Below are positions 1-22,993 of a stretch of DNA of 32,000 bases, piece by piece (the first letter of the stretch is position 1; every line of letters begins with the position of its first letter). The translations under genes and the position numbers were made by a program. Below the pieces are notes generated by a model. That model was not told where the DNA came from. It saw only the letters and a program-made list of their open reading frames with translations, and made no database searches. Origin of the DNA: Polynucleobacter sp. MWH-UH19D (GTDB lineage: Bacteria; Pseudomonadota; Gammaproteobacteria; Burkholderiales; Burkholderiaceae); assembly GCF_040409795.1 (NCBI RefSeq), contig NZ_CP099571.1:1713439-1745438 (forward strand), written 5' to 3'.

Positions 1-30
1 AGAAACGGTACACACCTTGCGCACAGAATT

Positions 31-47
31 TGTCGTTTTAAACGACA
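31..47. repeat. 17-bp palindrome copy P1 (TGTCGTTTTAAACGACA, centre T)
   Basis: Perfect palindrome read directly; lies 3 nt beyond the stop of the minus-strand ORF 51..812. Confidence 0.95.
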
Positions 48-50
48 TTT

Positions 51-812: not shown

Positions 813-1632
813 TTCTAATCAACCTTTGTACGCCATATTTGGCAACTAGTTTTTGTGAATTTATGCAGAGTTCATTGAAATCACTCTCTTCGCTAATATG
901 CACACCGAGAGTTTCGAGCTTTAACTTCAAGGCCCTTACCCACTTATATCCATCAGCGTCTTCATTTTTAATGATGTATTCCAAGGCTGCATGTATACAG
1001 TCTTTATATACAGACATTGCCAACATAGGAGCCTTATCCCGCTCCTCCCTACATACATCCCAAACATGTCGGAATTTTTTACCCATCAAAATGATGATCA
1101 TGTCTTGCTCAAGACTAAAGCGATAAGTCTCTTCTGGAATTTCAGTTGATGTCTCAACCCTAACCAATGATTCAAACTGCAATTTATCAAATTCAATGTA
1201 TCGAATTTGCGGATCATCGATTGCCATAATGTCACCCGTTTGAAGTGCGAATGGCTCTTCGCCAAACTCTTCATTCAAGTCTTCAGATTGAAAACTTTGA
1301 ATATTCTGGGAAACAATAACCAAAGGAGTAAACGTAACTTTTCCATATAACTGGCCCGTCTCAAAATCGATTTGCCCATCATTGCCAACTAAAAATACTT
1401 TTCTAAATAAAGTGTCGGAGCAATGGACATCAATTGCATAAGATGCCTTCTTGGCTACAATCAACTTTTGAATGTCATCGTTAGATAATAAAAAGCTATA
1501 GTCGAGAATGACATGCTCTGCTGGGCCCGCCATCTCCTTACGTGTATCCATCGTTGATTGAAACTCCGAGTCTAGATAATCATCACCTCGACCCAAAATT
1601 GGATATGGAAATGCCTTAATTATTGACTTCAT
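802..1632 (-). CDS. Hypothetical protein, third large gene of the methyltransferase/GHKL operon
   Basis: 276-aa ORF overlapping both neighbours (17 nt and 11 nt). No recognisable catalytic motif. Confidence 0.75.
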   Translation of the reverse strand: MKSIIKAFPYPILGRGDDYLDSEFQSTMDTRKEMAGPAEHVILDYSFLLSNDDIQKLIVAKKASYAIDVHCSDTLFRKVFLVGNDGQIDFETGQLYGKVTFTPLVIVSQNIQSFQSEDLNEEFGEEPFALQTGDIMAIDDPQIRYIEFDKLQFESLVRVETSTEIPEETYRFSLEQDMIIILMGKKFRHVWDVCREERDKAPMLAMSVYKDCIHAALEYIIKNEDADGYKWVRALKLKLETLGVHISEESDFNELCINSQKLVAKYGVQRLIRNVG

Positions 1633-3529
1633 GTGCCTCAGCCTCTATCGCAAAATCTACAGTCTTATCCGCAAAGGTTACTAATACATATTCCCTTTGC
1701 CCGCTAATTAGTTCAACGTCTATCGCAGTGACTGGCTTGTTATTAACTATCAAGCTAATCGGCTCACTTCCAATCTCACCAGATTTTTTAAATCTAATCG
1801 ACGCCAAACCTGTTATAGGAGAATCAAAGTAAATATAGGCTTGGTTAGAACCTGTCGCCCGCATCCTCAAGTTTTCTAACTTCTGATAATTTTTGGGTAG
1901 CCCTCCATGCGTCGGAGAAGATGGCCCAACAATCTTTTTACCCCCTTTTGGATCTGGCAAGTTGCCCCCCTTACCTTTTCGCTTCTTATTGCCGCCTCTA
2001 AGGCCACGCCCATCCATTTCTTCAGGGTCGCCATCACCCGCTTTGGGTTTATCTGAAGGAGTCGGTTTTGGCTTAAATGAGTAGTTTCCATTAGCTATCT
2101 GAATTGAAGCACCACGCTCTAATGTGCCACTACCTTCTTCTGGATTCTCAGAGATTTCAGAAAAAAGATCTTGGAGCTCATCTACAGTCACGCGATCTGT
2201 GGATGAATACTCTGCAAAACGTTTAAGTAGATCCCTTACAGCATTAGAAAATGTGTAATATTTTTTTTCGGCTTCTTTACGTTTTTGTAAATTGTCAATC
2301 CGATCAAATGCAAAATTATTATGCTCGGGATTTTCAAGTGTTTTCAGGGTTTCAGACCCATCCCCAGTTACACAAACAAAGAAATCAAAAGGCTTCAAAT
2401 TTGGAAATCTCTGCAACGCCGGTGCGGATCTTGTTATCAACATTCCATTTTCGCGAGCAATCGCTACTGAACGCCCTTCAACATCTTCATTCATCCTTAT
2501 GTACCAATCAATTCTTCCGAATTTAGGTATCTGTTGCTCGCCCTTATGAGTACTATTAACAACGGTTTCAATTGCCTGGAAACAATCTAACAAATAATCT
2601 TTATTAACCTCATCAAACTCTTGGCTCAATCTATCTTTGTAGTACTGATACTTTTCTTCGATATTTTGAGAATTTAATTCCTCGTCTTCACCAATCTTGA
2701 CGATTAAACTTCCTTTACGAATTGCATAGAAAAAGTTTGCTATTGCAGTAATAACAATAGAAGGATACGAATTCAAATTAAAAATAGTATGTGGAACAAA
2801 AATACTTGTACCTGTATTTTTTGAGAACTTTTCTCTAATATCTATTGCCCATTGCGGTATATCTAAGCCATCCAATGGAAGGCAGCCCGCAGGTATTCCA
2901 TAAAAACCCGTTCCTTGAGTCATTTCATGTTCAGTTTTGTTGTAAGACTGAAGGATGCTCTTACCCTGAAACCTATAAACGTGCTGATTATTTTGCTCAA
3001 TTTTCGTCAAATAAAAGAGTGCGCGAACATTGCTATTTGCAAAAGGTGCTTTAGAACCATGTCCAAATGACCCCAATGATGAAGCTGAAGTCTTTTGACT
3101 TAAGCCTGCACCCTTAGTCAAAGCGAACCATGCTCCATTAGGCCCGCCAATTGGGCCAGTTAATCCAGTCGTATTACTGTCGTGTATGCACAAAAAATTA
3201 ATTTTCTCTTCATCATTAATTAGTTTGATTGCGCGATCATAAAAATCAACAGCAGGATCGAGGTTTTGTTTCTTAGCAGTAGCTTTTGCTTGAACAAGAT
3301 GCTCCTCAAGCTCCGATACCTCTGGAACATCTTTTTTATCGATGCTAACTATATTGAATGAGACTGTAACTGGTTCAGTTCTCATCAATCCTGCATCTAA
3401 GCTGTTTTGAACAATTTCTCTCACGAGAGATGAAAGTCGATGCCCTTTAAAAGTGTCTATCCCAGAATCATTAAACCCTGCGGCTAGACCCCCTTGGTTA
3501 TCAGGAAAGTACCATTTCGCCTTTGACAT
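1616..3529 (-). CDS. GHKL (Bergerat-fold, MORC/Hsp90/MutL-like) ATPase with a Gly/Lys/Pro-rich linker and a C-terminal beta-rich domain
   Basis: N-box EIVQNSLDA (ExxxNxxD), HDSNTTGLTG (DxGxG-like) and GSFGHGSKA (GxxGxG lid) near the N-terminus. 637 aa; start overlaps the methyltransferase stop by 29 nt. Confidence 0.8.
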   Translation of the reverse strand: MSKAKWYFPDNQGGLAAGFNDSGIDTFKGHRLSSLVREIVQNSLDAGLMRTEPVTVSFNIVSIDKKDVPEVSELEEHLVQAKATAKKQNLDPAVDFYDRAIKLINDEEKINFLCIHDSNTTGLTGPIGGPNGAWFALTKGAGLSQKTSASSLGSFGHGSKAPFANSNVRALFYLTKIEQNNQHVYRFQGKSILQSYNKTEHEMTQGTGFYGIPAGCLPLDGLDIPQWAIDIREKFSKNTGTSIFVPHTIFNLNSYPSIVITAIANFFYAIRKGSLIVKIGEDEELNSQNIEEKYQYYKDRLSQEFDEVNKDYLLDCFQAIETVVNSTHKGEQQIPKFGRIDWYIRMNEDVEGRSVAIARENGMLITRSAPALQRFPNLKPFDFFVCVTGDGSETLKTLENPEHNNFAFDRIDNLQKRKEAEKKYYTFSNAVRDLLKRFAEYSSTDRVTVDELQDLFSEISENPEEGSGTLERGASIQIANGNYSFKPKPTPSDKPKAGDGDPEEMDGRGLRGGNKKRKGKGGNLPDPKGGKKIVGPSSPTHGGLPKNYQKLENLRMRATGSNQAYIYFDSPITGLASIRFKKSGEIGSEPISLIVNNKPVTAIDVELISGQREYVLVTFADKTVDFAIEAEAHEVNN

Positions 3530-4520
3530 TTTCTTCCTCTAATATTGTTTGAATAATTTTTTTAAATATTTCATCTGCTACATCTGTACAAATTGCATTT
3601 CCGATCATTGAAAGTTTTGAGCTTTCTGAAATTCCAGCTGGAAACTCAAATTCCTTCTTTTCAATGCATTGCAACCTCATCAACTCATCCACACTTAATT
3701 TACGAACACCAAAGTCATCGACTAAAAAAGGCACGTTATGGCCACCACCGCCCATATTGGCGGTTAATGTAGGGCAAACATTTTCAGGACATGAACGAGC
3801 ATCCACACGTCGAATTTGAAAGAGCCTATTTGTCCCATCCAATTCGGCGTTTCTTCTAATCATCCTTGCATATTTGTTCTCTTCATCAAGATAGAGTCTT
3901 GCTTCGCTTCTTTTATCTTTGTTGATGTATTTCCATAGATTTTTTTTACCCTTTTTTACTTCTGGAAATATGAACTTATTTTTCTTAAAATATTTTGAGT
4001 GTGTAGCAACTATGAATAATCTCTCTCGTCTTTGTGCTGTATCCCCGATTTCATAGCTATCCAATATTTGGGCGTTATTAATATTGACCCAGTAACCGGC
4101 CTTTCTAAGTTCATTGATTACGACTCGCAATCTTGCCCCGCCATCAAATAACTTCAAATTTGGAACGTTTTCAAGCAATAACACTTTTGGAGGGTTTGCC
4201 ATTTCCCCGCAAATTCTTGGAATCTCAAAAAACAACTTCCCACGCTCGTCATCAAAACCTAGATTTTCACCAGCCACTGAAAATGATTGGCAGGGAAACC
4301 CCGCAGACAAAATATCTATAGTTTCATTTAACTCGGGGAACTCCGATGGACAAACTTCTCTTACATCCCCCATAAACACAGTAGATGATGGGAAGTTGTG
4401 CCGTAGCGTAAGACAACAAGCATCATCCATTTCGTTTATAAAAACGGTTTCAACGCCGTTTCTTTGGGCAGCAAGAACAAATCCCCCCAATCCGGCAAAA
4501 AGAGCTACATGTCGATACAT
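3501..4520 (-). CDS. DNA (cytosine-5) methyltransferase
   Basis: Canonical C5-MTase motifs: FAGLGG (motif I), GFPCQSFS (motif IV, catalytic Cys), ENV (motif VI), QRRERLFIV (motif VIII) and C-terminal GNA (motif X). Confidence 0.92.
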   Translation of the reverse strand: MYRHVALFAGLGGFVLAAQRNGVETVFINEMDDACCLTLRHNFPSSTVFMGDVREVCPSEFPELNETIDILSAGFPCQSFSVAGENLGFDDERGKLFFEIPRICGEMANPPKVLLLENVPNLKLFDGGARLRVVINELRKAGYWVNINNAQILDSYEIGDTAQRRERLFIVATHSKYFKKNKFIFPEVKKGKKNLWKYINKDKRSEARLYLDEENKYARMIRRNAELDGTNRLFQIRRVDARSCPENVCPTLTANMGGGGHNVPFLVDDFGVRKLSVDELMRLQCIEKKEFEFPAGISESSKLSMIGNAICTDVADEIFKKIIQTILEEENVKGEMVLS

Positions 4521-4537
4521 TCAAAAAACCTTTAATT

Positions 4538-4786
4538 CTATTTTTTAGACTTATTTTTAAAGGTAAATGCTACCTGGCTTTCAGCTGAACCTGACTTATA
4601 TCTCTGTTTTGCGTTTTTCATTTCAGACTCAAGGGCATCAAACATCTCTTTTACATGCTCTTCGCTGTATGAATAATTTCGCGTATCACTTAGGTTTCCA
4701 ATAAGCCTAATTCGATTCATAGCTTCTGATACCCTTTTCTGGGCCAGGCGCTCAAACTTCTCATACTTCTCAGTATCTTTAGTCAT
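4538..4786 (-). CDS. Small helical protein, first gene of the methyltransferase operon (possible controller/regulator)
   Basis: 82-aa ORF with a GGAAGGA Shine-Dalgarno just upstream, 17 nt upstream of the methyltransferase gene on the same strand. Confidence 0.6.
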   Translation of the reverse strand: MTKDTEKYEKFERLAQKRVSEAMNRIRLIGNLSDTRNYSYSEEHVKEMFDALESEMKNAKQRYKSGSAESQVAFTFKNKSKK

Positions 4787-4901
4787 ATTTTTCCTTCCAG
4801 TGTTACTACAAATTTGATATATTTCTGTAATATATCATAAAATTATACTTAGATATAGAAATATTCATAATATATTTTTGCAATATTAAGGATATAAGTA
4901 C

Positions 4902-5204
4902 ATGAAATTATTACCTTTTTTCACAATACTATTTGCAACATTCGGGGCATATGCTCAGCCTTACAACCTAAATAGCTCCCCATACAACATGGAGAACTCG
5001 CCCTACAACATGGAGAACTCGCCCTACAACATGCGAAATAGCCCTTACAACATCGAGAACAGTCCATACAACTTAAATTCAACAAATGGGGTTTACGACA
5101 ATTCTGGCAATCGCATTGGTTATGAAGTTAAAGCCCCAAGTGGGGTTACAAACTATTTTGACAATAGCGGAAACAGGATTGGGTATACCCCAGCAAAAAA
5201 ATGA
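4902..5204 (+). CDS. Secreted small repeat protein (SPYN heptad repeats plus two DNSGNRIGY repeats)
   Basis: AAGGA SD; signal-peptide-like N-terminus MKLLPFFTILFATFGAYA; six PYN[LMI]xNS heptads encoded by 21-bp tandem repeats. Confidence 0.7.
   Translation: MKLLPFFTILFATFGAYAQPYNLNSSPYNMENSPYNMENSPYNMRNSPYNIENSPYNLNSTNGVYDNSGNRIGYEVKAPSGVTNYFDNSGNRIGYTPAKK
4958..5084 (+). repeat. Six tandem 21-bp coding repeats (cc[ct]tacaacatggagaactcg-like)
   Basis: Read directly; two adjacent units are identical (5001-5021 matches the preceding unit) and the outer units are degenerate. Confidence 0.85.
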
Positions 5205-5440
5205 TTGCATCCCTAGTAATTGCTATTGCTTTGGCGACAATCAAGCCCGAACCCGTCTTGATACGTAGCGCAATTGATCTTTCAAGAATCATTGGACTAC
5301 CAAGAATGAAGTCTTTTGATAAGCATATTTTGAAAACTGTCTACTTAAATGAAATGGATTCAAGTCAGACCTATCAATCCAATACAAGACGAGAATTTTT
5401 TAATAATTATTTCAGAATAAGTGCAACAAGAATTAGGTAA
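5201..5440 (+). CDS. Hypothetical small protein with a hydrophobic N-terminus
   Basis: ATGA start/stop overlap with the upstream gene; same-strand tight spacing with 5450..5794. Confidence 0.4.
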   Translation: MIASLVIAIALATIKPEPVLIRSAIDLSRIIGLPRMKSFDKHILKTVYLNEMDSSQTYQSNTRREFFNNYFRISATRIR

Positions 5441-5449
5441 GGAGAGAAG

Positions 5450-5794
5450 ATGCGTGACTATACATACATAGATGGCTATCGATTCACAATCTGGAACATA
5501 TATCGTAGCAAACGCTTTGATATTGACCGTCTAGATATAAATTTTGCTGATAAAGAGAAGCCTAACTTTGTCAGAGGATTGAGGGTGGTAGATCACAACG
5601 AATCGGAAACTTATTTACTTCATGGAGGAGATGCTGACAATCTAAGCTACAGCCTGTGTTACCTTCATCATGAGAACAAAGAAAATATTCCAGATTATTT
5701 TGATGAATACCTAATTCAAGCCACTTCCAAAAAAGAATATCTTGTCCATAAATTATTTGAAGAAGAGAAACCATTAGAAGTTGCCGTTCATTAG
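5450..5794 (+). CDS. Hypothetical protein
   Basis: 114-aa ORF with a strong SD (AAGGAGAGAAG before ATG). Confidence 0.65.
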   Translation: MRDYTYIDGYRFTIWNIYRSKRFDIDRLDINFADKEKPNFVRGLRVVDHNESETYLLHGGDADNLSYSLCYLHHENKENIPDYFDEYLIQATSKKEYLVHKLFEEEKPLEVAVH

Positions 5795-5806
5795 CCCTTC
5801 AATAAA

Positions 5807-5823
5807 TGTCGTTTTAAACGACG
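5807..5823. repeat. 17-bp palindrome copy P2 (TGTCGTTTTAAACGACG, centre T)
   Basis: Lies 12 nt after the stop of 5450..5794 and directly abuts the stop of the minus-strand mini-ORF. Confidence 0.95.
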
Positions 5824-5994
5824 TTATTTGCGCTTTCGATTTCTACGCTCAAACTCAATAGCCCCGTCCAATATCGCTTTTTGTTTCTCAGCCTCTTTAT
5901 GACGATTAATTAAGTCTTTGCCTGTAATGACCGATTTGTCATTTAGCAGGTCATCTAAAGTCTTTTTAATCTTCTTCGATTCGCTTGTGAGCAT
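5824..5994 (-). CDS. Possible 56-aa basic/helical mini-protein (MLTSESKKIKKTLDDLL...ERRNRKRK)
   Basis: Hand-translated ORF below the 60-aa cut-off of the track. It fills most of the 207-bp space between palindromes P2 and P3. No clear SD. Confidence 0.3.
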   Translation of the reverse strand: MLTSESKKIKKTLDDLLNDKSVITGKDLINRHKEAEKQKAILDGAIEFERRNRKRK

Positions 5995-6030
5995 TTTTAA
6001 ATGCTAATAAAGACTTGGGGTAATGTCTAC

Positions 6031-6047
6031 TGTCGTTTTAAACGACA
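6031..6047. repeat. 17-bp palindrome copy P3 (centre T)
   Basis: Perfect copy; it overlaps the stop codon and last three Val codons of ORF 6038..7015. Confidence 0.95.
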
Positions 6048-7015
6048 ACTTTAGACTTTCTTTTTCGACTTACACGCAATCTCAAATTAATATAAAACTT
6101 TCTTATGCGAATTAGCCAATTAAGCAGATGAAATAAGGCTTTTGGGAATACATTATCCAAGAAGACAAGCAATATCAAGCTATGTACAAGTAATAAAAAA
6201 TCACTTCCTATTAGATTTCCAAGATACGTATCCTCATCAACTGGCAGCATCATCCAACAAAAAATTGCCACGACTACTGCAAAAAGAATAATTACTCTTT
6301 TTGAGGCTTTATATCCAGCAATTTCTAAAAAATCCGTGCCAGTCACCTTAAGACTATTTTTGGAATAGCCGTCAAAGTAAGTCATTCTCTCTAAACTTTC
6401 GTCGAGAGTTCTTCCAAAGCATCCTTCCAAAAGGAATTTGACGGAATTTATCAGCACATCTAATAGCTTGGTAATAAAACCTGAAACAAAAGCCTTCGAT
6501 CTCAGGCCAATCCCTTTAACAAGATGCACTGAATCAATATGAGCCTCAAATAAGGTAACTAAAATTTTTACGCCTGGAACCAGCTTGTATGCATCATCTA
6601 CAAAGCAGTCCTTCTCTGAATCATAAAAATAAGACCCAATTAAATCCAAATCCATTGGTTTTGGAGTAGAAAAACTTATGGCAACAGAATCTTTAGTGGG
6701 GCAACTAGGATCATCATAGTCATAGTCAATATTTTTAGTCCTATATTTACTCATTACCGCAATACGAAATCTAAGCGGTATGTACCTATCTCCTTTTAAT
6801 TCAAACCTATTCTCATACACGGCCCAAATAACGGCTATGTTGTCTGGATTTCCCTTCTTATCCTTTGCTGGCTTGTATCTAATATCATTGGGATAATTTT
6901 TTTGAATCGAAAATCCGACCTTAGCATCGGTTAGCAACGTAGGGTCATCAAAGCCTGCGAAATTAATGTCGCCAAACTTATCTAAAAATTCTTGGGAATT
7001 TTGAAGGTATGCCAT
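6038..7015 (-). CDS. Hypothetical membrane-anchored protein (soluble N-terminal ~230 aa plus two C-terminal TM helices and a basic tail)
   Basis: 325-aa ORF; hydrophobic stretches VIILFAVVVAIFCWMML and FLLLVHSLILLVFL near the C-terminus. Confidence 0.65.
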   Translation of the reverse strand: MAYLQNSQEFLDKFGDINFAGFDDPTLLTDAKVGFSIQKNYPNDIRYKPAKDKKGNPDNIAVIWAVYENRFELKGDRYIPLRFRIAVMSKYRTKNIDYDYDDPSCPTKDSVAISFSTPKPMDLDLIGSYFYDSEKDCFVDDAYKLVPGVKILVTLFEAHIDSVHLVKGIGLRSKAFVSGFITKLLDVLINSVKFLLEGCFGRTLDESLERMTYFDGYSKNSLKVTGTDFLEIAGYKASKRVIILFAVVVAIFCWMMLPVDEDTYLGNLIGSDFLLLVHSLILLVFLDNVFPKALFHLLNWLIRIRKFYINLRLRVSRKRKSKVVV

Positions 7016-7104
7016 AGCCTAATTATGAGCGGCATTTAGAAATGATGCTGTAATTTTTATCCTGCATTTTCTGGTTGCCCAACTCTACACACCGAAATTA
7101 AGCT

Positions 7105-8397
7105 ATGTTTTTCGCCACAAAAAACATGCTTAAAGAAACAGAAGTGCTTGCCCTTTTCTTTCAAAGCGCCTCTACCTCTGAAAAATCACCCCAACTCAAA
7201 TACCTAGAAAACTTAGCTACTGGCAAGCTAGTACATATGAGGGATGGCAACATCACTTTGTATAAGCGAGAGCGCAGTAAACAGTGGCAAATGCGCTTTA
7301 GGCTTTATGACAAAAAGTGGCACAGAGTCAGTACAGGCTATGAAGATCTGGAATACGCCAAAAAGAAAGCTGGCGATATTTACGATAGAGCCCGCTTTAT
7401 GGAAGAGCTGGGATTGCCACCCCTCAATAAACGCTTTGATTCAGCTGCAGAGTCAACCAAGATAGAACTACAAGGTGATTTAGATAATGGCGTAGGCAAA
7501 AAGATCTATGTAGATTACATCGCAGTAATTGATAACTACCTGATTCCCTTCTTTGGCAAGAAACACTTAACTAACATTAACCACCAAGATATTGCTGAAT
7601 ATGAAGTATGGCGAGCAGACAAGATGAAACGCAAGCTCATGCGCTCAACCATGATGACGCACTTCTCCGCATACAACAGAGTGTTTGATTCAGCAATCAA
7701 GCGTGGCTGGCTAAGCGATAAACACGCCGTACCTAGACTGGGTACTAAAGGGGAGAAAAGCACTCCGAGGCCAGCCTTTACTAGAAAAGAAATTGACTAC
7801 TTGCTGGAATTCTTAAAAACCTGGAGTCAAGGCGGCAAAAATCAAGAAGCTCACCAAGGCAGGCTATTGCTTCGCGATTACATCGAAATATTGATGGCCA
7901 CAGGAATGCGCCATGGTACAGAAGCATTTAACATCCAATGGCGCCATTTAGAGTGGCATACAGATAAGAGCGTTAGATACTTACGCATATGGGTGAATGG
8001 CAAAACAGGCGCTCGCTGGCTAATTGCAAGACACGAAGCTGTTCCAGTAATAGAGCGACTTAAAGCTCGCTTTACAGAATGGGATCACTTAACGCTTGAT
8101 CAATTGCTTGAAGAAAAGCGTGAAGAGTTTGTATGGCGACATCCTAATGGTGAGCGCCCATATGACTTTGTGAGCAGCTTTAAGTGGCTTATGAAAGACT
8201 CTGGATTATTGCTATCGACTACAGGGCATAAGCGCACCATGTATAGCTTCAGACATACCTACGCTACCTTTAGCTTAGTGGAATGGGGCATGGATATTCA
8301 TACGCTAGCAAAGCAAATGGGCACTTCCGTACAAATGCTGGAACGCTTTTACAGCAAACTAACTGCAACGCTAGCAGCTGAGAAACTAGCGGGATAG
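7105..8397 (+). CDS. Tyrosine recombinase / phage-type integrase
   Basis: Catalytic-domain signatures: ATGMRHGTE (Arg I), SFRHTYAT (H-x-x-R) and ERFYSKL (Tyr nucleophile region). The start is uncertain; an internal Met at ~7237 is possible. Confidence 0.85.
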   Translation: MFFATKNMLKETEVLALFFQSASTSEKSPQLKYLENLATGKLVHMRDGNITLYKRERSKQWQMRFRLYDKKWHRVSTGYEDLEYAKKKAGDIYDRARFMEELGLPPLNKRFDSAAESTKIELQGDLDNGVGKKIYVDYIAVIDNYLIPFFGKKHLTNINHQDIAEYEVWRADKMKRKLMRSTMMTHFSAYNRVFDSAIKRGWLSDKHAVPRLGTKGEKSTPRPAFTRKEIDYLLEFLKTWSQGGKNQEAHQGRLLLRDYIEILMATGMRHGTEAFNIQWRHLEWHTDKSVRYLRIWVNGKTGARWLIARHEAVPVIERLKARFTEWDHLTLDQLLEEKREEFVWRHPNGERPYDFVSSFKWLMKDSGLLLSTTGHKRTMYSFRHTYATFSLVEWGMDIHTLAKQMGTSVQMLERFYSKLTATLAAEKLAG

Positions 8398-8533
8398 GAA
8401 CCATTTAAAATGGCTCTTGCATAGTTAATCAGGTAAAACTTAATTCAGATTGATCAACTGTAAAAATCAGCGATTTTGAATCAAATGACCGAATTATTGA
8501 GTAGTCAAAATCAAGTGGGATCTAAAAAAGTAG

Positions 8534-8797
8534 TTAAAGCACAACTTTCTGTGCGCTTAATTTTTTGATCTTAGCTTGAGCTTTTTGAATTTGTTGCGCT
8601 TTACGCTCTGTATCCAATGCTTGCTTAGCAATTTGAGCATTACGCTTAAGTGAGTTAATGCGGGCTTGTGAAGGCGTCAATGGTTTAGTAGGTTTGAATT
8701 CGTAAAAGCGCATACGATTATTTATATGCGCCTTTACATGACCACTACTTACCAAATCCAGCACGAACGGCACCACTGGCTTGCTCAATTTGAGCAT
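8534..8797 (-). CDS. Hypothetical small basic protein
   Basis: ORF with a GGAGAG SD before the ATG at 8797; overlaps the upstream gene by ~53 nt. A shorter form starting at 8713 (MRFYEF...) is an alternative. Confidence 0.45.
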   Translation of the reverse strand: MLKLSKPVVPFVLDLVSSGHVKAHINNRMRFYEFKPTKPLTPSQARINSLKRNAQIAKQALDTERKAQQIQKAQAKIKKLSAQKVVL

Positions 8798-17588: not shown

Positions 17589-17629
17589 TTTGTAGGCAAA
17601 TTACCCATTTTGGGCAGTTTGCCTACAAA
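17589..17629. promoter_or_regulatory. 12-bp perfect inverted repeat (TTTGTAGGCAAA-N17-TTTGCCTACAAA), candidate operator
   Basis: Read directly; lies in the divergent promoter region between the Sel1 gene and the HTH regulator gene. Confidence 0.5.
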
Positions 17630-17657
17630 CCTGTTTTTTTATGAGTATTCTCAAGTC

Positions 17658-18092
17658 ATGGATAAAGAAGTTTCTTTAAAACTCAGCGGTCTTTTATTTG
17701 CAATAAATGATCACTACATCAACCATTTGATTCGGATTTATCGCTTATTTGAAGGAGATATTGAATGTTGCATTGTGCTTGGCGAAATTGCCCATCACAA
17801 TGTACAAAACGTTTATTCCGAGCTAACCGAAGAAAGATTAATGCTTAGTGAGGTAGCTACTAAGTACCGGGGAAGTAATGCTCACTCAATTAGCCTATCA
17901 ACCGGGATCCCCAGAGAAACAGTTAGACGAAAAATTAGAAAACTCGAAGAAATGGGATTTATACAGCAAGATGAGAAAAAACAACTTCGTATTACTAACC
18001 TGCCGCCTATCAAGCTAGAAGAGTTCTCCATGGAGTCTTTAGGTTTATTTATGGGTCTAGTTGACCGACTAAAAAAGCAAGATTATTTATAG
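17658..18092 (+). CDS. Winged-helix/HTH transcriptional regulator
   Basis: HTH-like segment ISLSTGIPRETVRRKIRKLEEMGFI. The first in-frame ATG is at 17658; the track start 17610 is TTG inside the inverted repeat. Confidence 0.65.
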   Translation: MDKEVSLKLSGLLFAINDHYINHLIRIYRLFEGDIECCIVLGEIAHHNVQNVYSELTEERLMLSEVATKYRGSNAHSISLSTGIPRETVRRKIRKLEEMGFIQQDEKKQLRITNLPPIKLEEFSMESLGLFMGLVDRLKKQDYL

Positions 18093-18101
18093 GATGACGC
18101 T

Positions 18102-18275
18102 TTGAATTCTTATGAAATACTTTCAATTGAAAATGCTGGCGGTAAATACTGGGTAGTTACTTATAAGTTAAGTAATGGCCAAACCGAGATTGAAACTATT
18201 GACGCCTTAGACCATCATGAGGCATTTGTGAAGTTTCGCAATCTGATGATTGAACAACAAAAAGCTCGAAAGTAA
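18102..18275 (+). CDS. Possible 57-aa protein (TTG start)
   Basis: Hand-translated: (M)NSYEILSIENAGGKYWVVTYKLSNGQTEIETIDALDHHEAFVKFRNLMIEQQKARK. AGGA lies 7 nt upstream of the TTG. Confidence 0.3.
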   Translation: MNSYEILSIENAGGKYWVVTYKLSNGQTEIETIDALDHHEAFVKFRNLMIEQQKARK

Positions 18276-18287
18276 TTACTAGTTTTT

Positions 18288-18386
18288 TGTCGTTTAAAAC
18301 GACACTCTGTTACACACCCGCCCAAATCGGTCTTAGACCCTTGTATTAGCTGGTGAATTGATTAGTGCGATCTATTACCACTCCGA
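18288..18386 (+). repeat. Composite ~100-bp element B (17-mer P8 at 18288-18304, centre A)
   Basis: Same architecture as element A; the first 32 nt and the ATTAGTGCGATCTATTACCA block are nearly identical to A. Confidence 0.85.
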
Positions 18387-18398
18387 TAATGACTTGCT

Positions 18399-19220
18399 TT
18401 ATTTAAGTCTTAATATTCGTATAGCCCCACTCAATACTAAAAATCCAATGGCTAAGCCAATAATCCAGTCGGGAACTGGACTGTTAAACCAAGCAACCAA
18501 TACACCAGCAATGATGACACCCAAATTCGCCAAAACATCATTAGCAGAGAAGATATAGCTTGCCCGCATATGAACGCCATCGTTCTTACGCTTAGATATC
18601 AAGAACAAGCAGGTCACATTGACAGCTAACGCCAACACAGAAATCCAAATCATCGTATTGGCTTCGGGTTCGGCACCAATATAGATCTGATAGCCTGATC
18701 GCCAAAGAGCGCCTACGGCTAAAAATAACTCAACAACGCCTGCTAATTTCGCGGCCTTTAATTTATTAGAGGCAGCTTTTCCAACAGCATATAAAGCAAC
18801 TCCATAGACTGCCGCATCAGCAAACATATCCAAGGCATCAGCAATAAGTCCCGCCGACTCTGCCAACCAACCAGCAATGATCTCTACAAAGAACATGGCT
18901 CCGTTAAGCACCAAAAGCCAAATCAAGACTTGAAGCTCTCTTGCTGTTTCTTCTGTATCTTTAGGCCGAATGGGCACAGAATCAACAGATTTATTGCTCT
19001 GAATGCTTGCCCCAAAATTTAACGGCTCTAATTTTGCTAATACATGATTAGGCTCTTCGGAGTGACAAATCACCACTTTGCGATTAGGAATATCAAAATT
19101 CATTGAATGAATTACCAATGAACCCAAGACCATCCTAATCATTTGCTCTTCAGAGGGGCAATCCATAGCCGGCACATGAAATGTTGTTTCAACTACAAGT
19201 TGGGATTGTTTTTCTTTCAT
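18399..19220 (-). CDS. Cation diffusion facilitator (CDF) transporter with an N-terminal HMA-like domain and no C-terminal cytoplasmic domain
   Basis: Six TM segments. TM2 has DALDMFAD and TM5 has SANDVLAN (a D-D/N-D metal site). The ORF ends right after TM6, and the N-terminal ~95 aa look ferredoxin-like. Confidence 0.75.
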   Translation of the reverse strand: MKEKQSQLVVETTFHVPAMDCPSEEQMIRMVLGSLVIHSMNFDIPNRKVVICHSEEPNHVLAKLEPLNFGASIQSNKSVDSVPIRPKDTEETARELQVLIWLLVLNGAMFFVEIIAGWLAESAGLIADALDMFADAAVYGVALYAVGKAASNKLKAAKLAGVVELFLAVGALWRSGYQIYIGAEPEANTMIWISVLALAVNVTCLFLISKRKNDGVHMRASYIFSANDVLANLGVIIAGVLVAWFNSPVPDWIIGLAIGFLVLSGAIRILRLK

Positions 19221-19264
19221 ATATTCGGAATGTATAGGATTTCATAATACTTTCATACAAGAAT

Positions 19265-19273
19265 TGCTATAAT
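19265..19273 (+). promoter_or_regulatory. Extended -10 promoter element (TGcTATAAT) for the riboswitch/exporter transcript
   Basis: TG-n-TATAAT lies ~7 nt upstream of the predicted start of the riboswitch P1 helix. Confidence 0.45.
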
Positions 19274-19279
19274 TGACAC

Positions 19280-19390
19280 GTCACTAGGGAGTAGCCTCTC
19301 TTCTCTACAGAAGATGGCTTACATCAACATACTTGAGCTTCTAGCTTATGGTGTAAGCGGTTTAGATACTTGGCAAGACTTTTGACTACA
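19280..19390 (+). promoter_or_regulatory. yybP-ykoY (manganese) riboswitch aptamer
   Basis: Conserved blocks AGGGAGTAGC (19286-19295), CAACATAC and TTGGCAAGAC (19370-19379). A closing GTCA...TGAC P1 helix is present, and the element sits upstream of a UPF0016 gene. Confidence 0.8.
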
Positions 19391-19432
19391 AACACTTACT
19401 TAGGCTGTGGGTGCGTTGTAGTCATTTGTTTA
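19384..19432 (+). terminator. Riboswitch expression-platform terminator candidate
   Basis: GACTACAA (19384-19391) pairs with TTGTAGTC (19416-19423) and is followed by ATTTGTTT. The 5' arm overlaps the 3' strand of aptamer P1. Confidence 0.45.
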
Positions 19433-19457
19433 TGTCACAGCCTAGAGGACTATCAAA

Positions 19458-20030
19458 ATGGATTCACTCTTAATCTCCACTGGCGTTGTGGCTCTTGCCG
19501 AGATGGGCGATAAAACCCAGTTACTGGCATTTATTCTTGCGGCTCGCTTTAAAAAGCCTGTTCCGATTATTTTGGGTATTCTTGCGGCAACCATCATCAA
19601 CCACGGCTTGGCTGGCGCATTAGGCGCCTGGATTACAGCAATGGTCAACCCTGAAGTATTGCGCTGGATATTAGGCGCCTCATTTATTGGTATGGCTATT
19701 TGGACTTTGATCCCAGACAAGATTGAAGAAGAGGAAACGCAGGTTGCTAAACACTTGGGCGTATTTGGAGCAACCTTTATCACTTTCTTTTTAGCAGAGA
19801 TGGGTGACAAGACTCAATTGGCTACTATCGCCTTGGCCGCTCACTATGTCGCTCCTTTAGCCGTTGTTGTAGGAACGACTTTAGGAATGCTCATTGCGGA
19901 TGTACCAGCAGTATTTGTAGGCAATAAGTTCGCCAAGAAGATTCCGATGAAGCTGGTTCACTCTATTGCGGCCGGCATCTTCGCAGTAATGGGCGTACTC
20001 ACATTACTTGAAGTTGATAAATTATTTTAA
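19458..20030 (+). CDS. UPF0016 / GDT1 (TMEM165) family cation (Mn2+/Ca2+) transporter
   Basis: Two E-x-G-D-K-T-Q motifs (AEMGDKTQL twice) in a 190-aa six-TM protein. Confidence 0.9.
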   Translation: MDSLLISTGVVALAEMGDKTQLLAFILAARFKKPVPIILGILAATIINHGLAGALGAWITAMVNPEVLRWILGASFIGMAIWTLIPDKIEEEETQVAKHLGVFGATFITFFLAEMGDKTQLATIALAAHYVAPLAVVVGTTLGMLIADVPAVFVGNKFAKKIPMKLVHSIAAGIFAVMGVLTLLEVDKLF

Positions 20031-20039
20031 GGAGGCGTT

Positions 20040-20390
20040 ATGACTTGGATTATCACCAAATACTTACTGACAGCCGGAATGGTTGTATTCATTAGTGAAG
20101 TTGCCAAGCGAAGCGATAAGTTAGGTGGATTCATTGCGGCATTGCCCTTGATGACATTACTTACTCTTACTTGGCTATTCATTGAGAATCAATCGGAAGA
20201 GAAAATAGCAAACCACGCTTATTACACTTTTTGGTATGTGATCCCGACACTACCGATGTTTTTACTATTTCCCTATTTGCTACCAAGACTAGGTTTTTGG
20301 CTCACTATGGGAGCAAGTGTTGTGGTGACAGTTATTTGTTTCGGGCTCTTTGCCTTATTGATGAAAAACTTTGGGGTTGAACTGTTGTGA
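20040..20390 (+). CDS. Small membrane protein (DUF3147-like)
   Basis: 116 aa with four hydrophobic segments, 9 nt after the UPF0016 gene. Confidence 0.6.
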   Translation: MTWIITKYLLTAGMVVFISEVAKRSDKLGGFIAALPLMTLLTLTWLFIENQSEEKIANHAYYTFWYVIPTLPMFLLFPYLLPRLGFWLTMGASVVVTVICFGLFALLMKNFGVELL

Positions 20391-20395
20391 TGATT

Positions 20396-20494
20396 TGTCG
20401 TTTTAAACGACAATTCAATACACACCCACTAGATCACACTCTAGCTTCTTGATTTGCTTGGTGAAATAATTAGTGCGATCTATTACTACTCCGA
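20396..20494 (+). repeat. Composite ~100-bp element C (17-mer P9 at 20396-20412, centre T)
   Basis: Shares the 17-mer, ATACACACCC and ATTAGTGCGATCTATTAC blocks with A and B. The middle differs but keeps a short hairpin (CTAGA-N6-TCTAG). Confidence 0.8.
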
Positions 20495-20516
20495 GAAAAG
20501 CCTTAAGTCGCAAAAT

Positions 20517-21410
20517 CTATTTAAATAAAACATGAGCGGCGCCAAAAATAAATTCCTCAAACTCTCTCTTATTCCACGAGATATCAGCTCCGCCATTTAT
20601 TAATCTATGCTGCATATTTGCACAGAACAATTTAGAAGAGTCGACTCTTTTAAGCCAATCAATACAATTTATTACTGCCTCAGTGTAGGTGCTTGTATTG
20701 AATAACTCGTCTGGGACGTTACTTAACATTCCCTCAATAAAGTATGAAGGCGCACTACCAATATTAATAATTTTCTGTTCAACTAACTTTTTTCTTAGGT
20801 TTTTAAAAATTCTAATCACATGCTTCAACATTCCAAGAGTTCTTTTGTTTTTTTCTACTAGATAATCCTTGTGAAGCTGAGGAAAGTTAACAATATGAGT
20901 GCCATCTTTTTTATAAAAACTAATTCCCTCAAGATAATCATCTGGTTTCATTGGATCAAAAGAAAAATATTTTCGGTGCTTGATTGCGACTAATACATCA
21001 GCTTTGCGACGATTTCCTTTGGGTGATATTTGTATGGCCTTCGAGCCAATTACAACCTCAGAATCGAATCTTGCTATCAATAAATTAACTACATCACCTC
21101 TAAAATCAGAATATTTATATGCCGCACTAATAGGAAATGCGGCTTGAAATTTATTCTTTTGATTATCAGAAATTAGGCTTAAATCATATGTAAATGCGGA
21201 ATCAAGTCGAATGATGATGTCTACATCACTCTCTCCAATGACATTTGTGTCATTTGCATAAGATCCCTGTAAAAAGATCTTTGTGGCTTTTGATTGATAG
21301 GCTGCATTTCTATCCTCAAGGACGCCTCTAATAGTCGAATATGTCTCCTTTGATGTTACCTGGGCGCCTATAGAAGACATAGACTCCAACTCTAACTCTG
21401 AAATTGGCAT
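20517..21410 (-). CDS. CD-NTase/SMODS-like nucleotidyltransferase (CBASS cyclase candidate)
   Basis: Pol-beta NTase signature QGSYANDTNVIGESDVDIII (GS...DxD) and a third acidic residue in KADVLVAI. SD GAGGGAG lies inside the end of the patatin gene. Confidence 0.7.
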   Translation of the reverse strand: MPISELELESMSSIGAQVTSKETYSTIRGVLEDRNAAYQSKATKIFLQGSYANDTNVIGESDVDIIIRLDSAFTYDLSLISDNQKNKFQAAFPISAAYKYSDFRGDVVNLLIARFDSEVVIGSKAIQISPKGNRRKADVLVAIKHRKYFSFDPMKPDDYLEGISFYKKDGTHIVNFPQLHKDYLVEKNKRTLGMLKHVIRIFKNLRKKLVEQKIINIGSAPSYFIEGMLSNVPDELFNTSTYTEAVINCIDWLKRVDSSKLFCANMQHRLINGGADISWNKREFEEFIFGAAHVLFK

Positions 21411-21420
21411 TTCGACTCCC

Positions 21421-22356
21421 TCATAAATTCAAGGCTCTTAGGGCCACTTCATATTTTCTAAAGGAGTCTCGACCAAATTGAAATAATAAGTTCAATTTCT
21501 TGATATCAGACTCCAACAGGTCAACAGCTAAAGCACCCTTAGTTGAAGACTCATTAATTCTTACAATCGGGACATTTTTGAATATCAAATTCGTCAACTG
21601 CTCCATAGAGCGGGTATTCATATTCAAGGTTTTTTTAAGTAGCCTCTCTAAGGTCCAAATAAATATCATTCTCTGATACCAAGGCTTTATCGGCTCTATA
21701 TAGTCACCAACTCCCACACTTACAACACGCAAATCGAATTCAGAGTAATTAAGGGGGCCTACTGCATCACTGATTGAAAAAAGAGTCGGGTTGTTTGCGA
21801 TGTATCCACCGTCTATTAGCTCCCATGTAAGGCCATCATCCGCCTGCACTACTTTTCTCTCAAACAATGGATACGCCGAACATGATGAAACTACAGCATC
21901 AGCCAAAGAACACCCAAATCCAGGCTTAAAACTGGCAGTCATACCGTGCGCCTGTTCTAGGTTTGACTTAAAAATCATCGGCTTCTCTTCCAGCCACTTT
22001 GACGCAACAATACCCAGCTTAACTTTTAAATCTGAAACGGTGTAATGCCCAAATAACTCATTCGCATATAACTCCAACTTTTGAGTTCTTCCATTTGAAG
22101 TTTTTTGGGACATTATTTCTGGAATAAGGCGCCTGTATTGATCAACGATCTCACTTACAGACTTACCAAGACCAAGCATGGTTGCAATAATTGCACCTGT
22201 ACTGGTTCCATAAATTAGATCAAAGTGCAAACCAAGGGGTTTATCCCCTAAAGCTGCCTCAAGCTCTGAAAGTACCCCGAGGGTATACATGCCCTTCGAC
22301 CCTCCACCATCGAGGCTAAGAATCTTGCATAGGGGCTTCTGAGGGGATGTATTCAC
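21421..22356 (-). CDS. capV: Patatin-like phospholipase (CapV-like CBASS effector)
   Basis: Oxyanion DGGGSKG, nucleophile GTSTG (GxSxG) and DGG(Y) Asp motif. GTG start; directly upstream of the NTase gene, as in capV-dncV. Confidence 0.8.
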   Translation of the reverse strand: MNTSPQKPLCKILSLDGGGSKGMYTLGVLSELEAALGDKPLGLHFDLIYGTSTGAIIATMLGLGKSVSEIVDQYRRLIPEIMSQKTSNGRTQKLELYANELFGHYTVSDLKVKLGIVASKWLEEKPMIFKSNLEQAHGMTASFKPGFGCSLADAVVSSCSAYPLFERKVVQADDGLTWELIDGGYIANNPTLFSISDAVGPLNYSEFDLRVVSVGVGDYIEPIKPWYQRMIFIWTLERLLKKTLNMNTRSMEQLTNLIFKNVPIVRINESSTKGALAVDLLESDIKKLNLLFQFGRDSFRKYEVALRALNL

Positions 22357-22382
22357 ACCCTCATCTTATATTTTTTAGAATC

Positions 22383-22399
22383 AGTCGTTTTAAACGACA
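22383..22399. repeat. 17-bp palindrome copy P10 (AGTCGTTTTAAACGACA, centre T)
   Basis: Lies 26 nt upstream of the patatin start codon; it is the last copy before the island/core junction. Confidence 0.9.
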
Positions 22400-22565
22400 C
22401 CTCATGCCGCTACCCTCCGCTCTGAGCCATATGGTTACAGGGTTTTTTCCAGCAAACCCTTATTCTTCGGTACTTTGCAGGCGGTGTGTAGCACGGCGAA
22501 AACCATGGTTTTCTAAGTGTTTGATTTTATTGGGAAAAGGGTCGGCAACCTAAGAACCTTGCGAG

Positions 22566-22604
22566 TTATGATTCCGTCGCTCTAACCAACTGAGCTAATT
22601 CGCC
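22566..22604 (-). pseudogene. 5' half of a tRNA gene with anticodon CAU (Met/Ile2 type), truncated in the anticodon loop
   Basis: The minus strand reads GGCGAAT-TA-GCTC-AGTTGGTTA-GAGC-G-ACGGA-ATCATAA. The expected TCCGT, T-arm and ATTCGCC acceptor strand are absent. Confidence 0.6.
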
Positions 22605-22672
22605 GAAGGTGTGATTGTAGCAAATCCGCCTCATTCTGTAACCGCAAAGCCCATAAACCGTAATATAGGCAC

Positions 22673-22993
22673 ATGAGAACGCACTTCCCTAAAATCCTGA
22701 TCTGGTTTGTTTTGCTCGCTTTTGCGCCACTAGGGGCATTTGCCGCTCAGATCTATATAACTAACTATCCGTCAGAAGCTAATGCAAAGGTATTTGTCAC
22801 TAAATATCCTTCTGAAGCGAATTGCATTGTGTATGAGACCCAATACTCCAGTGACACCGAACCTGGCGTGTGGTTTTACACAAAATACAAAAGCGATGCA
22901 CGCGCTGTAATTGCTTACACCCAATACAAATCCGAGGCTGACTTGATTGTCTATTACACCAAGTACAAGAGCGACGCCCGCTGTCGTTATTAA
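22673..22993 (+). CDS. Secreted repeat protein (six T-x-Y-x-S-[ED]-[AT] repeats)
   Basis: Signal peptide followed by TNYPSEANAKVFV / TKYPSEANCIVYE / TQYSSDTEPGVWFY / TKYKSDARAVIAY / TQYKSEADLIVYY / TKYKSDARCRY. Confidence 0.7.
   Translation: MRTHFPKILIWFVLLAFAPLGAFAAQIYITNYPSEANAKVFVTKYPSEANCIVYETQYSSDTEPGVWFYTKYKSDARAVIAYTQYKSEADLIVYYTKYKSDARCRY

What the first reader, a model, noticed from the sequence alone, without database searches (positions are those of the whole stretch)
22400..22620. Island/core junction marked by a tRNA(CAU) gene broken exactly in the anticodon loop
SEEN: the minus strand from 22604 gives a canonical acceptor strand, D-arm, anticodon stem 5' strand and loop ATCATAA. 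The sequence then diverges (CTCGCAAGG...). No complementary stem strand, T-arm or ATTCGCC acceptor strand is present, and I could not find the missing 3' half anywhere in the window. To the right the composition and gene content become core-like. ESTABLISHED: many tyrosine integrases cross over within the anticodon loop of tRNA genes. INFERENCE: this is an att junction. Since the 5' half is not rejoined to a functional 3' half, either the intact gene lies at the far (unseen) left end of the island or the gene was inactivated.
Basis: partly seen in the sequence, partly recalled or inferred. Interest (0 to 1): 0.6.

Follow-up and report, generated by a model that had tools for sequence, protein, structure and literature searches.

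The report
Displaced tRNA-Met front half marking island edge
The half tRNA gene is the host's original front half, pushed aside when a 22.7-kb mobile island inserted into the anticodon loop of the tRNA-Met gene and rebuilt the gene at its far end with its own promoter piece and front half, which is a rare but already documented layout.

Summary

- **What is there:** Window 22604→22566 (minus strand) holds the first 39 nt of a tRNA-Met(CAU) gene, ending at the last base of the anticodon loop. No 3' half follows it.
- **Where the intact gene is:** It lies just outside the window, 90 bp left of position 1, on the same strand.
- **The repeat:** A perfect 60-bp direct repeat (21 bp upstream plus 39 nt of tRNA) brackets 22,693 bp.
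- **Empty site:** Five relatives have left flank, tRNA and right flank contiguous.
- **Which copy is native:** The fragment keeps the native promoter. The rebuilt gene keeps the native 3' half and terminator but has island DNA upstream.
- **Recurrence:** The same break recurs in at least 11 of 151 genomes of the genus and in 80 metagenomic junctions.
- **Crossover:** Three genomes have classical 3'-half islands at the same tRNA. Together the two types confine the crossover to AATCATAA.
- **Likely enzyme:** A 430-aa tyrosine integrase (7105-8397). Its homologues sit 100-270 nt from the junction in compact islands.

Islands that leave a 5' fragment are known but rare (159 of 3919 in Islander). 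This scan has already met the layout on other genomes. This is a new member of a known kind.

The parts
22566..22604 (-). Displaced native 5' part of the tRNA-Met(CAU) gene: linear nt 1-39, canonical positions 1-38, ending with the anticodon loop ATCATAA
22566..22573 (-). AATCATAA, the 8-nt segment within which strand exchange must occur. It is the overlap between the identity blocks of 5'-type and 3'-type islands.
22605..22625 (-). 21 bp upstream of the tRNA that also belong to the 60-bp direct repeat. Contains TGCTACAAT, a TG-extended -10 box.
22614..22642 (-). Native tRNA promoter-like site (GTTACA-17-TACAAT, TG before the -10), now pointing into the island
   Evidence: upstream sequence homologous to island-free relative G022
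22399..22565 (-). Island-side att arm between the crossover and the last island palindrome. Conserved in the G104 and G066 islands and in metagenomic family-A junctions.
22384..22398 (.). Last copy of the island-restricted palindrome GTCGTTTWAAACGAC, bounding the att arm
1..22565 (.). Island body inside the window. The island continues about 128 bp left of position 1, where it ends with its own promoter piece and tRNA 5' half fused to the native 3' half (genome 1713273-1713349). Copy-to-copy distance is 22,693 bp.
32..46 (.). First island palindrome, 121 bp upstream of the rebuilt tRNA. The equivalent copy lies 77-129 nt upstream of the tRNA start in other islands.
7105..8397 (+). 430-aa tyrosine integrase, the candidate enzyme for integration at the tRNA-Met anticodon loop. 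The catalytic residues R269, K300, R383, H384, H399 and Y416 are conserved.
10161..10757 (+). Catalytic-domain-only mini tyrosine recombinase, part of the conserved island core. Not the likely tRNA integrase.
20517..22356 (-). Patatin plus SMODS nucleotidyltransferase (CBASS-like) operon, the first genes downstream of the displaced native tRNA promoter
22673..22993 (+). First core gene (DUF6150) of the right flank, conserved next to the tRNA in relatives

Best explanation
The fragment is the attL-type junction of a 22.7-kb integrative island in the single elongator-type tRNA-Met(CAU) gene of a Polynucleobacter genome. The island's attP carried a copy of the tRNA's 5' part (nt 1-39) together with a -10 promoter element. 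A tyrosine integrase exchanged strands within the anticodon loop (AATCATAA).

After integration, the host's own promoter and 5' half were left as a dead stump at the right end of the island. At the left end, the island-borne promoter piece and 5' half are fused to the host's 3' half and terminator, which restores a complete gene.

Shown: the repeat, the empty site, which copy is native, the invariant break point, and the association of the integrase with this junction type. Inferred: that the 430-aa integrase at 7105-8397 is the enzyme, that the rebuilt gene is transcribed from the TG-extended -10 box, and that the displaced native promoter now reads into the island.
For: - **Repeat and intact gene:** The intact tRNA lies 90 bp left of the window on the same strand, and a perfect 60-bp direct repeat is present.
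- **Empty site:** Five relatives carry left flank, tRNA and right flank contiguously.
- **Native versus island sequence:** The fragment's upstream region aligns with the closest island-free relative beyond the repeat. The intact copy's downstream terminator aligns with all relatives, but its upstream sequence beyond -21 does not.
- **Invariant break point:** In eight genomic islands the 3' end of the repeat is always after ATCATAA, while the 5' end varies from +2 to -21, and each island brings its own -10-like box. Eighty metagenomic junctions in about five arm families break at the same base.
- **Crossover mapping:** 3'-type islands at the same tRNA have a repeat that starts at AATCATAA.
- **Integrase association:** Int430 homologues lie about 200 nt from the fragment in four compact genomic islands and in all 15 metagenomic junctions of arm families B and D. 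The family is annotated as tyrosine integrase (PF00589), and its catalytic residues are invariant.
- **Configuration:** It matches the Islander rule that a 5' fragment lies upstream of the tDNA.
Against: - In G000 the integrase gene is 14 kb from the junction and inverted relative to the compact islands.
- Two islands with the same junction (G104, G106) have no integrase.
- Pfam's catalytic-domain model did not reach E <= 0.01 on the G000 protein itself.
- There is no read-level or experimental evidence of excision.
- No attP form of the G000-type junction was found in public contigs.
- The rebuilt gene lacks a recognisable -35 box.
Confidence: 0.86

Rival explanations
1. The structure was created by site-specific integration in some ancestor or donor, but it reached this genome by homologous recombination of the flanks or by vertical descent. 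It is now a fixed, immobile island.
For: The island-borne repeat is identical to the native copy even in lineage-specific bases: T in the D-loop and the 21-bp upstream stretch, which differ in the closest relative. The integrase module is internal and inverted. Integrase-less islands exist with the same junction. No circular form was found.
Against: The integrase reading frame and catalytic residues are intact. Both att arms and both repeat copies are perfectly preserved. This is a statement about history and does not contradict the att-junction reading.
Confidence: 0.3
2. The mini tyrosine recombinase (10161-10757), not the 430-aa integrase, performs the tRNA integration.
For: It is conserved (49-93% identity) in six other islands, including the 3'-type islands of G052 and G114.
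Against: It is never adjacent to the att junction. It has only the catalytic domain. The 430-aa integrase family directly abuts the junction in 19 compact islands or contigs.
Confidence: 0.08
3. The island inserted upstream of an untouched tRNA gene (crossover near -21). On this reading the half tRNA at 22566-22604 is island-borne DNA, not the host's.
For: A direct repeat alone cannot say where within it the exchange took place.
Against: Sequence upstream of the fragment beyond the repeat is homologous to the native upstream region of G022. In G104 the repeat starts only at tRNA nt +2, so no exchange upstream of the gene is possible there. The 3' edge of the repeat is invariant while the 5' edge varies. 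The 3'-type islands start their repeat in the same loop.
Confidence: 0.03
4. The tRNA gene is interrupted by an intron (for example a group I intron in the anticodon loop, as in Azoarcus tRNA-Ile), and the 3' exon lies further downstream.
For: The break lies in the anticodon loop of a CAU tRNA in a betaproteobacterium, where such introns are known (my own recollection).
Against: No intron family matches even at E <= 10. There is no 3' half in the window. The next 22.7 kb hold about 25 genes on both strands. A second complete gene with its own 5' half exists.
Confidence: 0.01

Closest known systems
Genomic islands with a displaced 5' tDNA fragment and an anticodon-centred attP (Islander; Hudson, Lau & Williams 2015, PMC4383910; 'reversed target orientation', Zhao & Williams 2002, cited in PMC1635311 and PMC6563490)
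   Same: Intact tDNA plus a co-oriented 5' fragment lying upstream of it, a tyrosine integrase inside, crossover at the anticodon loop, and restoration of the gene by element-borne sequence.
   Different: This is a particular, very common freshwater family at tRNA-Met(CAU). The element also brings part or all of the promoter. Related integrases at the same loop leave the opposite (3') half. Many copies lack an integrase.
Classical tRNA-integrating islands and prophages that carry the 3' part of the tRNA (Williams 2002 sublocation classes; 3760 of 3919 Islander islands)
   Same: Tyrosine integrase, symmetric anticodon stem-loop target, direct repeat, and tandem accretion at one tRNA.
   Different: Opposite polarity. 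Here the element must supply transcription signals, and the host promoter is left pointing into the element.
Tycheposons and additive flexible islands of streamlined planktonic bacteria (Hackl et al., bioRxiv 10.1101/2020.12.28.424599; a tRNA-Met-flanked tycheposon in freshwater Methylophilaceae, PMC10872708)
   Same: tRNA-anchored, tyrosine-recombinase-driven islands carrying defence and nutrient or metal cargo. Partial tRNA copies separate tandem elements. Hosts are abundant streamlined plankton.
   Different: Membership of the tycheposon integrase clades and the presence of their replication modules were not tested. The island here is subdivided by a specific 15-bp palindrome, a feature I did not see mentioned in the passages of these two papers that I read.
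tRNA-dependent lysogeny (phage integration destroys a host tRNA and the phage supplies a complete tRNA gene; PMC10865867)
   Same: Integration into a tRNA gene, with the loss compensated by the element.
   Different: Here the gene is rebuilt as a chimera. The native 3' half and terminator are contiguous with the left flank, so it is not replaced by a separate element-borne gene.

Membership tests
tDNA-integrated genomic island (Islander definition) | A full tDNA and a cognate end fragment in the same orientation on one replicon | tested here: met
   both copies are on the minus strand, and the fragment covers tRNA nt 1-39.
tDNA-integrated genomic island (Islander definition) | Correct configuration: a 5' fragment lies upstream of the tDNA | tested here: met
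   On the minus strand the fragment (genome 1736004-1736042) is upstream of the intact gene (1713273-1713349). The rule is quoted.
tDNA-integrated genomic island (Islander definition) | A tyrosine integrase gene inside the interval, and a length of 2-200 kb | tested here: met
   integrase at 7105-8397. Length 22,693 bp.
tDNA-integrated genomic island (Islander definition) | Uninterrupted target site in relatives | tested here: met
   G022, G005, G024, G008 and G002 have the flanks and tRNA contiguous.
Anticodon-centred (class A) attachment site | The identity block ends or starts at the anticodon loop, which is flanked by the symmetric stem | tested here: met
   the 5'-type repeat always ends after ATCATAA, and the 3'-type repeat starts at AATCATAA.
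Anticodon-centred (class A) attachment site | Strand cleavage positions 6-8 bp apart within the loop | not testable with these tools
   This needs in vitro cleavage mapping or heteroduplex analysis.
Reversed-orientation (5'-fragment) tRNA islands | The element carries the 5' portion of the gene and supplies upstream transcription signals | tested here: met
   sequence upstream of the rebuilt gene is island DNA with its own -10-like box in all eight islands. In G000 the repeat includes TGCTACAAT.
Reversed-orientation (5'-fragment) tRNA islands | The rebuilt gene is expressed and functional | not testable with these tools
   ARAGORN calls it a normal tRNA, and it differs from relatives' genes by one D-loop base.
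Intron-containing tRNA gene (group I intron in the anticodon loop) | An intron RNA fold followed by the 3' exon | tested here: not met
Integron | An IntI-type integrase with an attI/attC cassette array | tested here: not met
   the integron-integrase models score 36.9 bits (cut-off 265) and 21.4 bits (cut-off 435) on the mini recombinase and give no hit on the 430-aa protein. The cassette-like palindromes are not attC-like in length.
Tycheposon | An integrase from the tycheposon tyrosine-recombinase clades plus a replication or packaging module | not tested
   I only read the papers. No reference sequences were compared.
tRNA-dependent lysogeny | The host tRNA is destroyed and a complete tRNA gene is carried by the element | tested here: not met
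   the 3' half and terminator of the intact gene are the native ones.

The most novel reading that the evidence does not exclude
The att region may itself be one cassette of a two-tier recombination system. The att region here means the island promoter piece, the tRNA 5' half and the roughly 170-bp arm, bounded on both sides by the palindrome GTCGTTTWAAACGAC.

In this reading, the 430-aa integrase docks the whole island at the tRNA-Met anticodon loop. A second activity, possibly the mini tyrosine recombinase, shuffles, inverts and exchanges palindrome-bounded modules between islands. Those modules would include the att and integrase modules. This would explain integrase-less islands, the inverted internal integrase in G000, and the displaced host tRNA promoter being wired to whatever module lies next to it.
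Probability: 0.3. Interest if true: 0.7.

Novelty: new member of a known kind. Interest (0 to 1): 0.4.

Why it matters
This locus fixes both ends of a 22.7-kb defence and metal-homeostasis island in an abundant freshwater bacterium, and it explains an apparently broken essential tRNA gene.

It adds a well-populated natural family to a rare class: at least 11 of 151 genomes and 80 metagenomic junctions, in a class that makes up about 4% of mapped tRNA islands. In that class the element must carry promoter signals as well as the tRNA half.

Related elements leave the opposite half at the same loop, so the exchange region can be narrowed to 8 nt from sequence alone. That gives a ready-made attP/attB/integrase set for testing how target polarity is determined.

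Tried and rejected
- **Intron in the anticodon loop:** no Rfam match even at E <= 10.
- **3' half elsewhere in the window:** none found.
- **Island-side arm as a decayed tRNA 3' half:** not supported. 542 of 2000 shuffles align at least as well.
- **Further internal tRNA-fragment copies in G000 (tandem composition):** none found by BLAST.
- **Solved-structure sequence relatives of the integrase:** none at E <= 1.
- **attP or circular form:** no exact G000-type junction in metagenome or viral contigs, and no broken 5' half at all in viral contigs.
- **Link between family-A arms and a G000-like integrase in metagenomic contigs:** the contigs are too short to tell.
- **Whether 5'-type and 3'-type integrases are separate clades:** the ML tree nests the 3'-type inside the 5'-type diversity, but the AU test does not reject 5'-type monophyly (p = 0.283). 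This is unresolved.
- **Primary papers:** Williams 2002 and Zhao & Williams 2002 are not held in the library. I cite them only through papers that cite them.

Full report
**Observation.** On the minus strand from window 22604 the sequence reads GGCGAAT TA GCTC AGTTGGTTA GAGC G ACGGA ATCATAA. That is an acceptor strand, a D-arm, the 5' strand of the anticodon stem and a CAU anticodon loop. It then continues CTCGCAAGG with no complementary stem strand, T-arm or acceptor 3' strand. ARAGORN reports no tRNA in the whole window. Rfam gives only a sub-threshold tRNA hit there, 16.1 bits against a gathering score of 29. No T-arm plus ATTCGCC pattern exists in the window. The description is accurate.

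**Where the rest of the gene is.** The window is G000:C1:1713439-1745438. ARAGORN on the whole 1.95-Mb genome finds three CAU tRNAs.
- One has initiator features: a C1/A72 mismatch and GGG/CCC in the anticodon stem.
- One resembles tRNA-Ile2.
- The third, c[1713273,1713349], lies 90-166 bp left of the window start on the same strand and begins with the same 39 nt as the fragment.

The assignment of these three types rests on my reading of identity elements. The conclusion that the third is the only elongator tRNA-Met gene is therefore an inference.

The two loci share a perfect 60-bp direct repeat: ATTTGCTACAATCACACCTTC followed by tRNA nt 1-39. The copies lie at genome 1713311-1713370 and at window 22566-22625, which is 22,693 bp apart. 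No other copy exists in the genome.

**Empty site, and which copy is native.** I searched 40 relatives with the right flank and then inspected the loci. G022, G005, G024, G008 and G002 carry the left flank, an intact tRNA-Met(CAU) and the right flank contiguously. The alignment shows three things.
- The sequence upstream of the G000 fragment, beyond the repeat, is homologous to the native upstream region of the closest island-free relative, G022.
- The terminator hairpin downstream of the G000 intact gene matches all relatives.
- The sequence upstream of the intact gene beyond -21 is unrelated to any relative.

So the stump at 22566-22604 is the host's original promoter and 5' half. The working gene is a chimera of island-borne upstream sequence and 5' half with the host's 3' half.

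**Generality and crossover point.** Counting 5' halves and 3' halves in 151 genomes of the genus gives at least 11 genomes with an extra 5' half: G000, G010, G066, G072, G073, G104, G106, G144, G149 (two extra), G152 and G158. In every case where both copies lie on one contig (G000, G010, G066, G072, G104, G106, G144, G149, G158) the extra copy is upstream of the intact gene. It lies 9-26 kb away, except in G149, where the two extra copies are 93 and 114 kb away.

In eight islands analysed base by base, the 3' edge of the repeat is invariant, falling after ATCATAA. The 5' edge varies from tRNA nt +2 (G104) to -21 (G000, G072). Each island brings its own -10-like box (TATAAT, TACAAT or TAAAAT).

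Three genomes (G019, G052, G114) instead have classical islands downstream of the same tRNA. Their 46-bp repeat, AATCATAA...CCA, starts at canonical position 31. The two identity blocks overlap only in AATCATAA, so exchange must occur within the anticodon loop plus A31.

A metagenome scan for 5' halves followed by any base other than T returned 103 stretches. Of the 84 junctions in the 80 loci retrieved, 4 are intact tRNAs of another taxon and 80 are genuine breaks at the same base. These fall into about five families of island-side arm. Four contigs carry two junctions 3-5 kb apart, and about 25 junctions have an island palindrome 77-129 nt upstream, so they are attP-like or tandem junctions.

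**The enzyme.** The island has one full-length tyrosine recombinase (7105-8397, 430 aa) and a catalytic-domain-only mini recombinase (10161-10757).
- The 430-aa protein belongs to a large family: 2296 hits, annotated as tyrosine-type recombinase/integrase, with PF00589 in relatives from Polynucleobacter, Rhodoferax and Ferrovaceae.
- It retains invariant R269, K300, R383-H384, H399 and Y416.
- Homologues at 40% identity lie about 200 nt from the fragment, in the tRNA's direction, in the compact 10-kb islands of G010, G072, G144 and G158.
- Homologues also follow all 15 metagenomic junctions of arm families B and D.
- G052 and G114, the 3'-type islands, have a 30%-identical homologue directly downstream of the intact tRNA.
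- In G000 and G066 (91% identical integrase) the integrase module is internal and inverted. G104 and G106 have none.

Assigning int430 as the integrase for this junction is therefore a well-supported inference, not a demonstration. Whether the polarity of the carried half switched once or several times within the family is unresolved: the ML tree nests the 3'-type inside the 5'-type diversity, but the AU test gives p = 0.283.

**Transcription logic (inference).** The fragment retains a promoter-like site, GTTACA-17-TACAAT with an upstream TG. No minus-strand terminator-like site lies between it and the patatin/SMODS operon at 22356-20517. The rebuilt gene keeps only the TG-extended -10 box and has no recognisable -35. 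In compact islands the displaced host promoter points at the integrase gene.

**Comparison with what is known.**
- Islander reports 3760 islands with a 3' fragment and 159 with a 5' fragment, and 2083 anticodon-centred sites. It states the configuration rule that this locus obeys.
- Krupovic et al. [quoted passage not shown]
- Tycheposon-type additive islands at tRNA genes, including a tRNA-Met-flanked one in freshwater Methylophilaceae, are the nearest ecological parallel.
- Earlier notes of this scan report the same reversed layout on other genomes, at tRNA-Leu, tRNA-Met, tRNA-Pro and tRNA-Arg.

The finding is a real, well-resolved instance of a rare known kind.

**Island context.** The island body carries the following:
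- DUF6339/unknown/C5-methylase genes;
- an integrase core: int430, DUF6641, Polynucleobacter-1 RNA, the mini recombinase and an AAA ATPase;
- an MFS transporter, a Sel1-repeat protein and an HTH protein;
- a CDF transporter and a Mn-riboswitch-controlled GDT1 exporter;
- the CBASS-like pair.

It is cut into modules by ten copies of GTCGTTTWAAACGAC, which occur nowhere else in the genome. That palindrome is present in 93 of 151 genomes of the genus. Homology blocks shared with the G066 and G104 islands begin or end within about 10-40 bp of palindromes (about 70-90 bp for the Sel1+HTH block, which includes a composite element next to the palindrome). Module order differs between islands. Both att arms are themselves bounded by palindromes. 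This supports module exchange at the palindromes but does not identify the enzyme.

Noticed in passing
window 32-22398 (copies at 32, 5808, 6032, 12226, 14231, 15467, 16693, 18289, 20397, 22384): The 15-bp directional palindrome GTCGTTTWAAACGAC occurs 10 times in the island and nowhere else in the 1.95-Mb genome at up to 2 mismatches. It is present, usually clustered, in 93 of 151 genomes of the genus. Homology blocks shared with other islands start or end at it (MFS block within 9-11 nt), and module order differs between islands. The extended consensus AWTT-GTCG-TTTTAAA-CGAC-AAWT looks like a tyrosine-recombinase core site.
   Followed up: partly
G019:C1:1890155-1903849, G052:C1:1915498-1923867, G114:C5:155845-164969 (L025-L027): Classical 3'-half islands sit at the same tRNA-Met gene, with a 46-bp repeat starting at AATCATAA. 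G052 and G114 carry distant homologues of the same integrase (30%), DUF6641 (41%) and the mini recombinase (54%) but no exact palindrome copies.
   Followed up: partly
G101:C1:220925-231612, G103:C3:375750-387874, G023:C1:2001486-2012376, G165:C1:1800099-1814296, G162:C1:1996268-2004720: In several genomes the palindrome clusters lie about 205-225 kb from the tRNA-Met gene, not next to it. That suggests a second conserved docking site for the same kind of modular island. In G000 a tRNA-Phe gene lies at that distance.
   Followed up: no
G149:C1:1890165, 1982972, 2004122: One genome has three 5' halves of the tRNA-Met gene (one intact gene plus two stumps, 93 and 114 kb upstream). It is a candidate large tandem array of islands.
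   Followed up: no
L031, L046, L050, L062 (metagenome contigs): These contigs each carry two broken 5' halves 3-5 kb apart. In L031 and L046 each junction has a palindrome about 85-106 nt upstream and about 196 nt downstream; the other two contigs show this only in part. They look like small integrase-less cassettes stacked in tandem at the tRNA. Arm family C (about 52 of 80 junctions) never has an integrase within 3 kb.
   Followed up: partly
G144 island (L020), upstream of its rebuilt tRNA: The island-borne promoter region in G144 (GGGGCGGATTTGCTACAATCACACC) matches the native promoter of the G000/G022 lineage rather than G144's own. These islands appear to carry a promoter captured from another host lineage.
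   Followed up: no
window 20517-22356: A patatin plus SMODS-domain nucleotidyltransferase pair (CBASS-like) is the first operon downstream of the displaced native tRNA promoter. No terminator-like site lies in between on that strand.
   Followed up: partly
window 51-4520: A four-gene minus-strand block (DUF6339, two proteins of 276 and 637 aa with no family match, and a C5 cytosine methylase) sits at the tRNA-proximal end of the island. It may be an uncharacterised restriction or defence module.
   Followed up: no
window 9373-9506: A Polynucleobacter-1 RNA (RF01718, 96 bits) lies between DUF6641 and the mini recombinase in the conserved island core.
   Followed up: no
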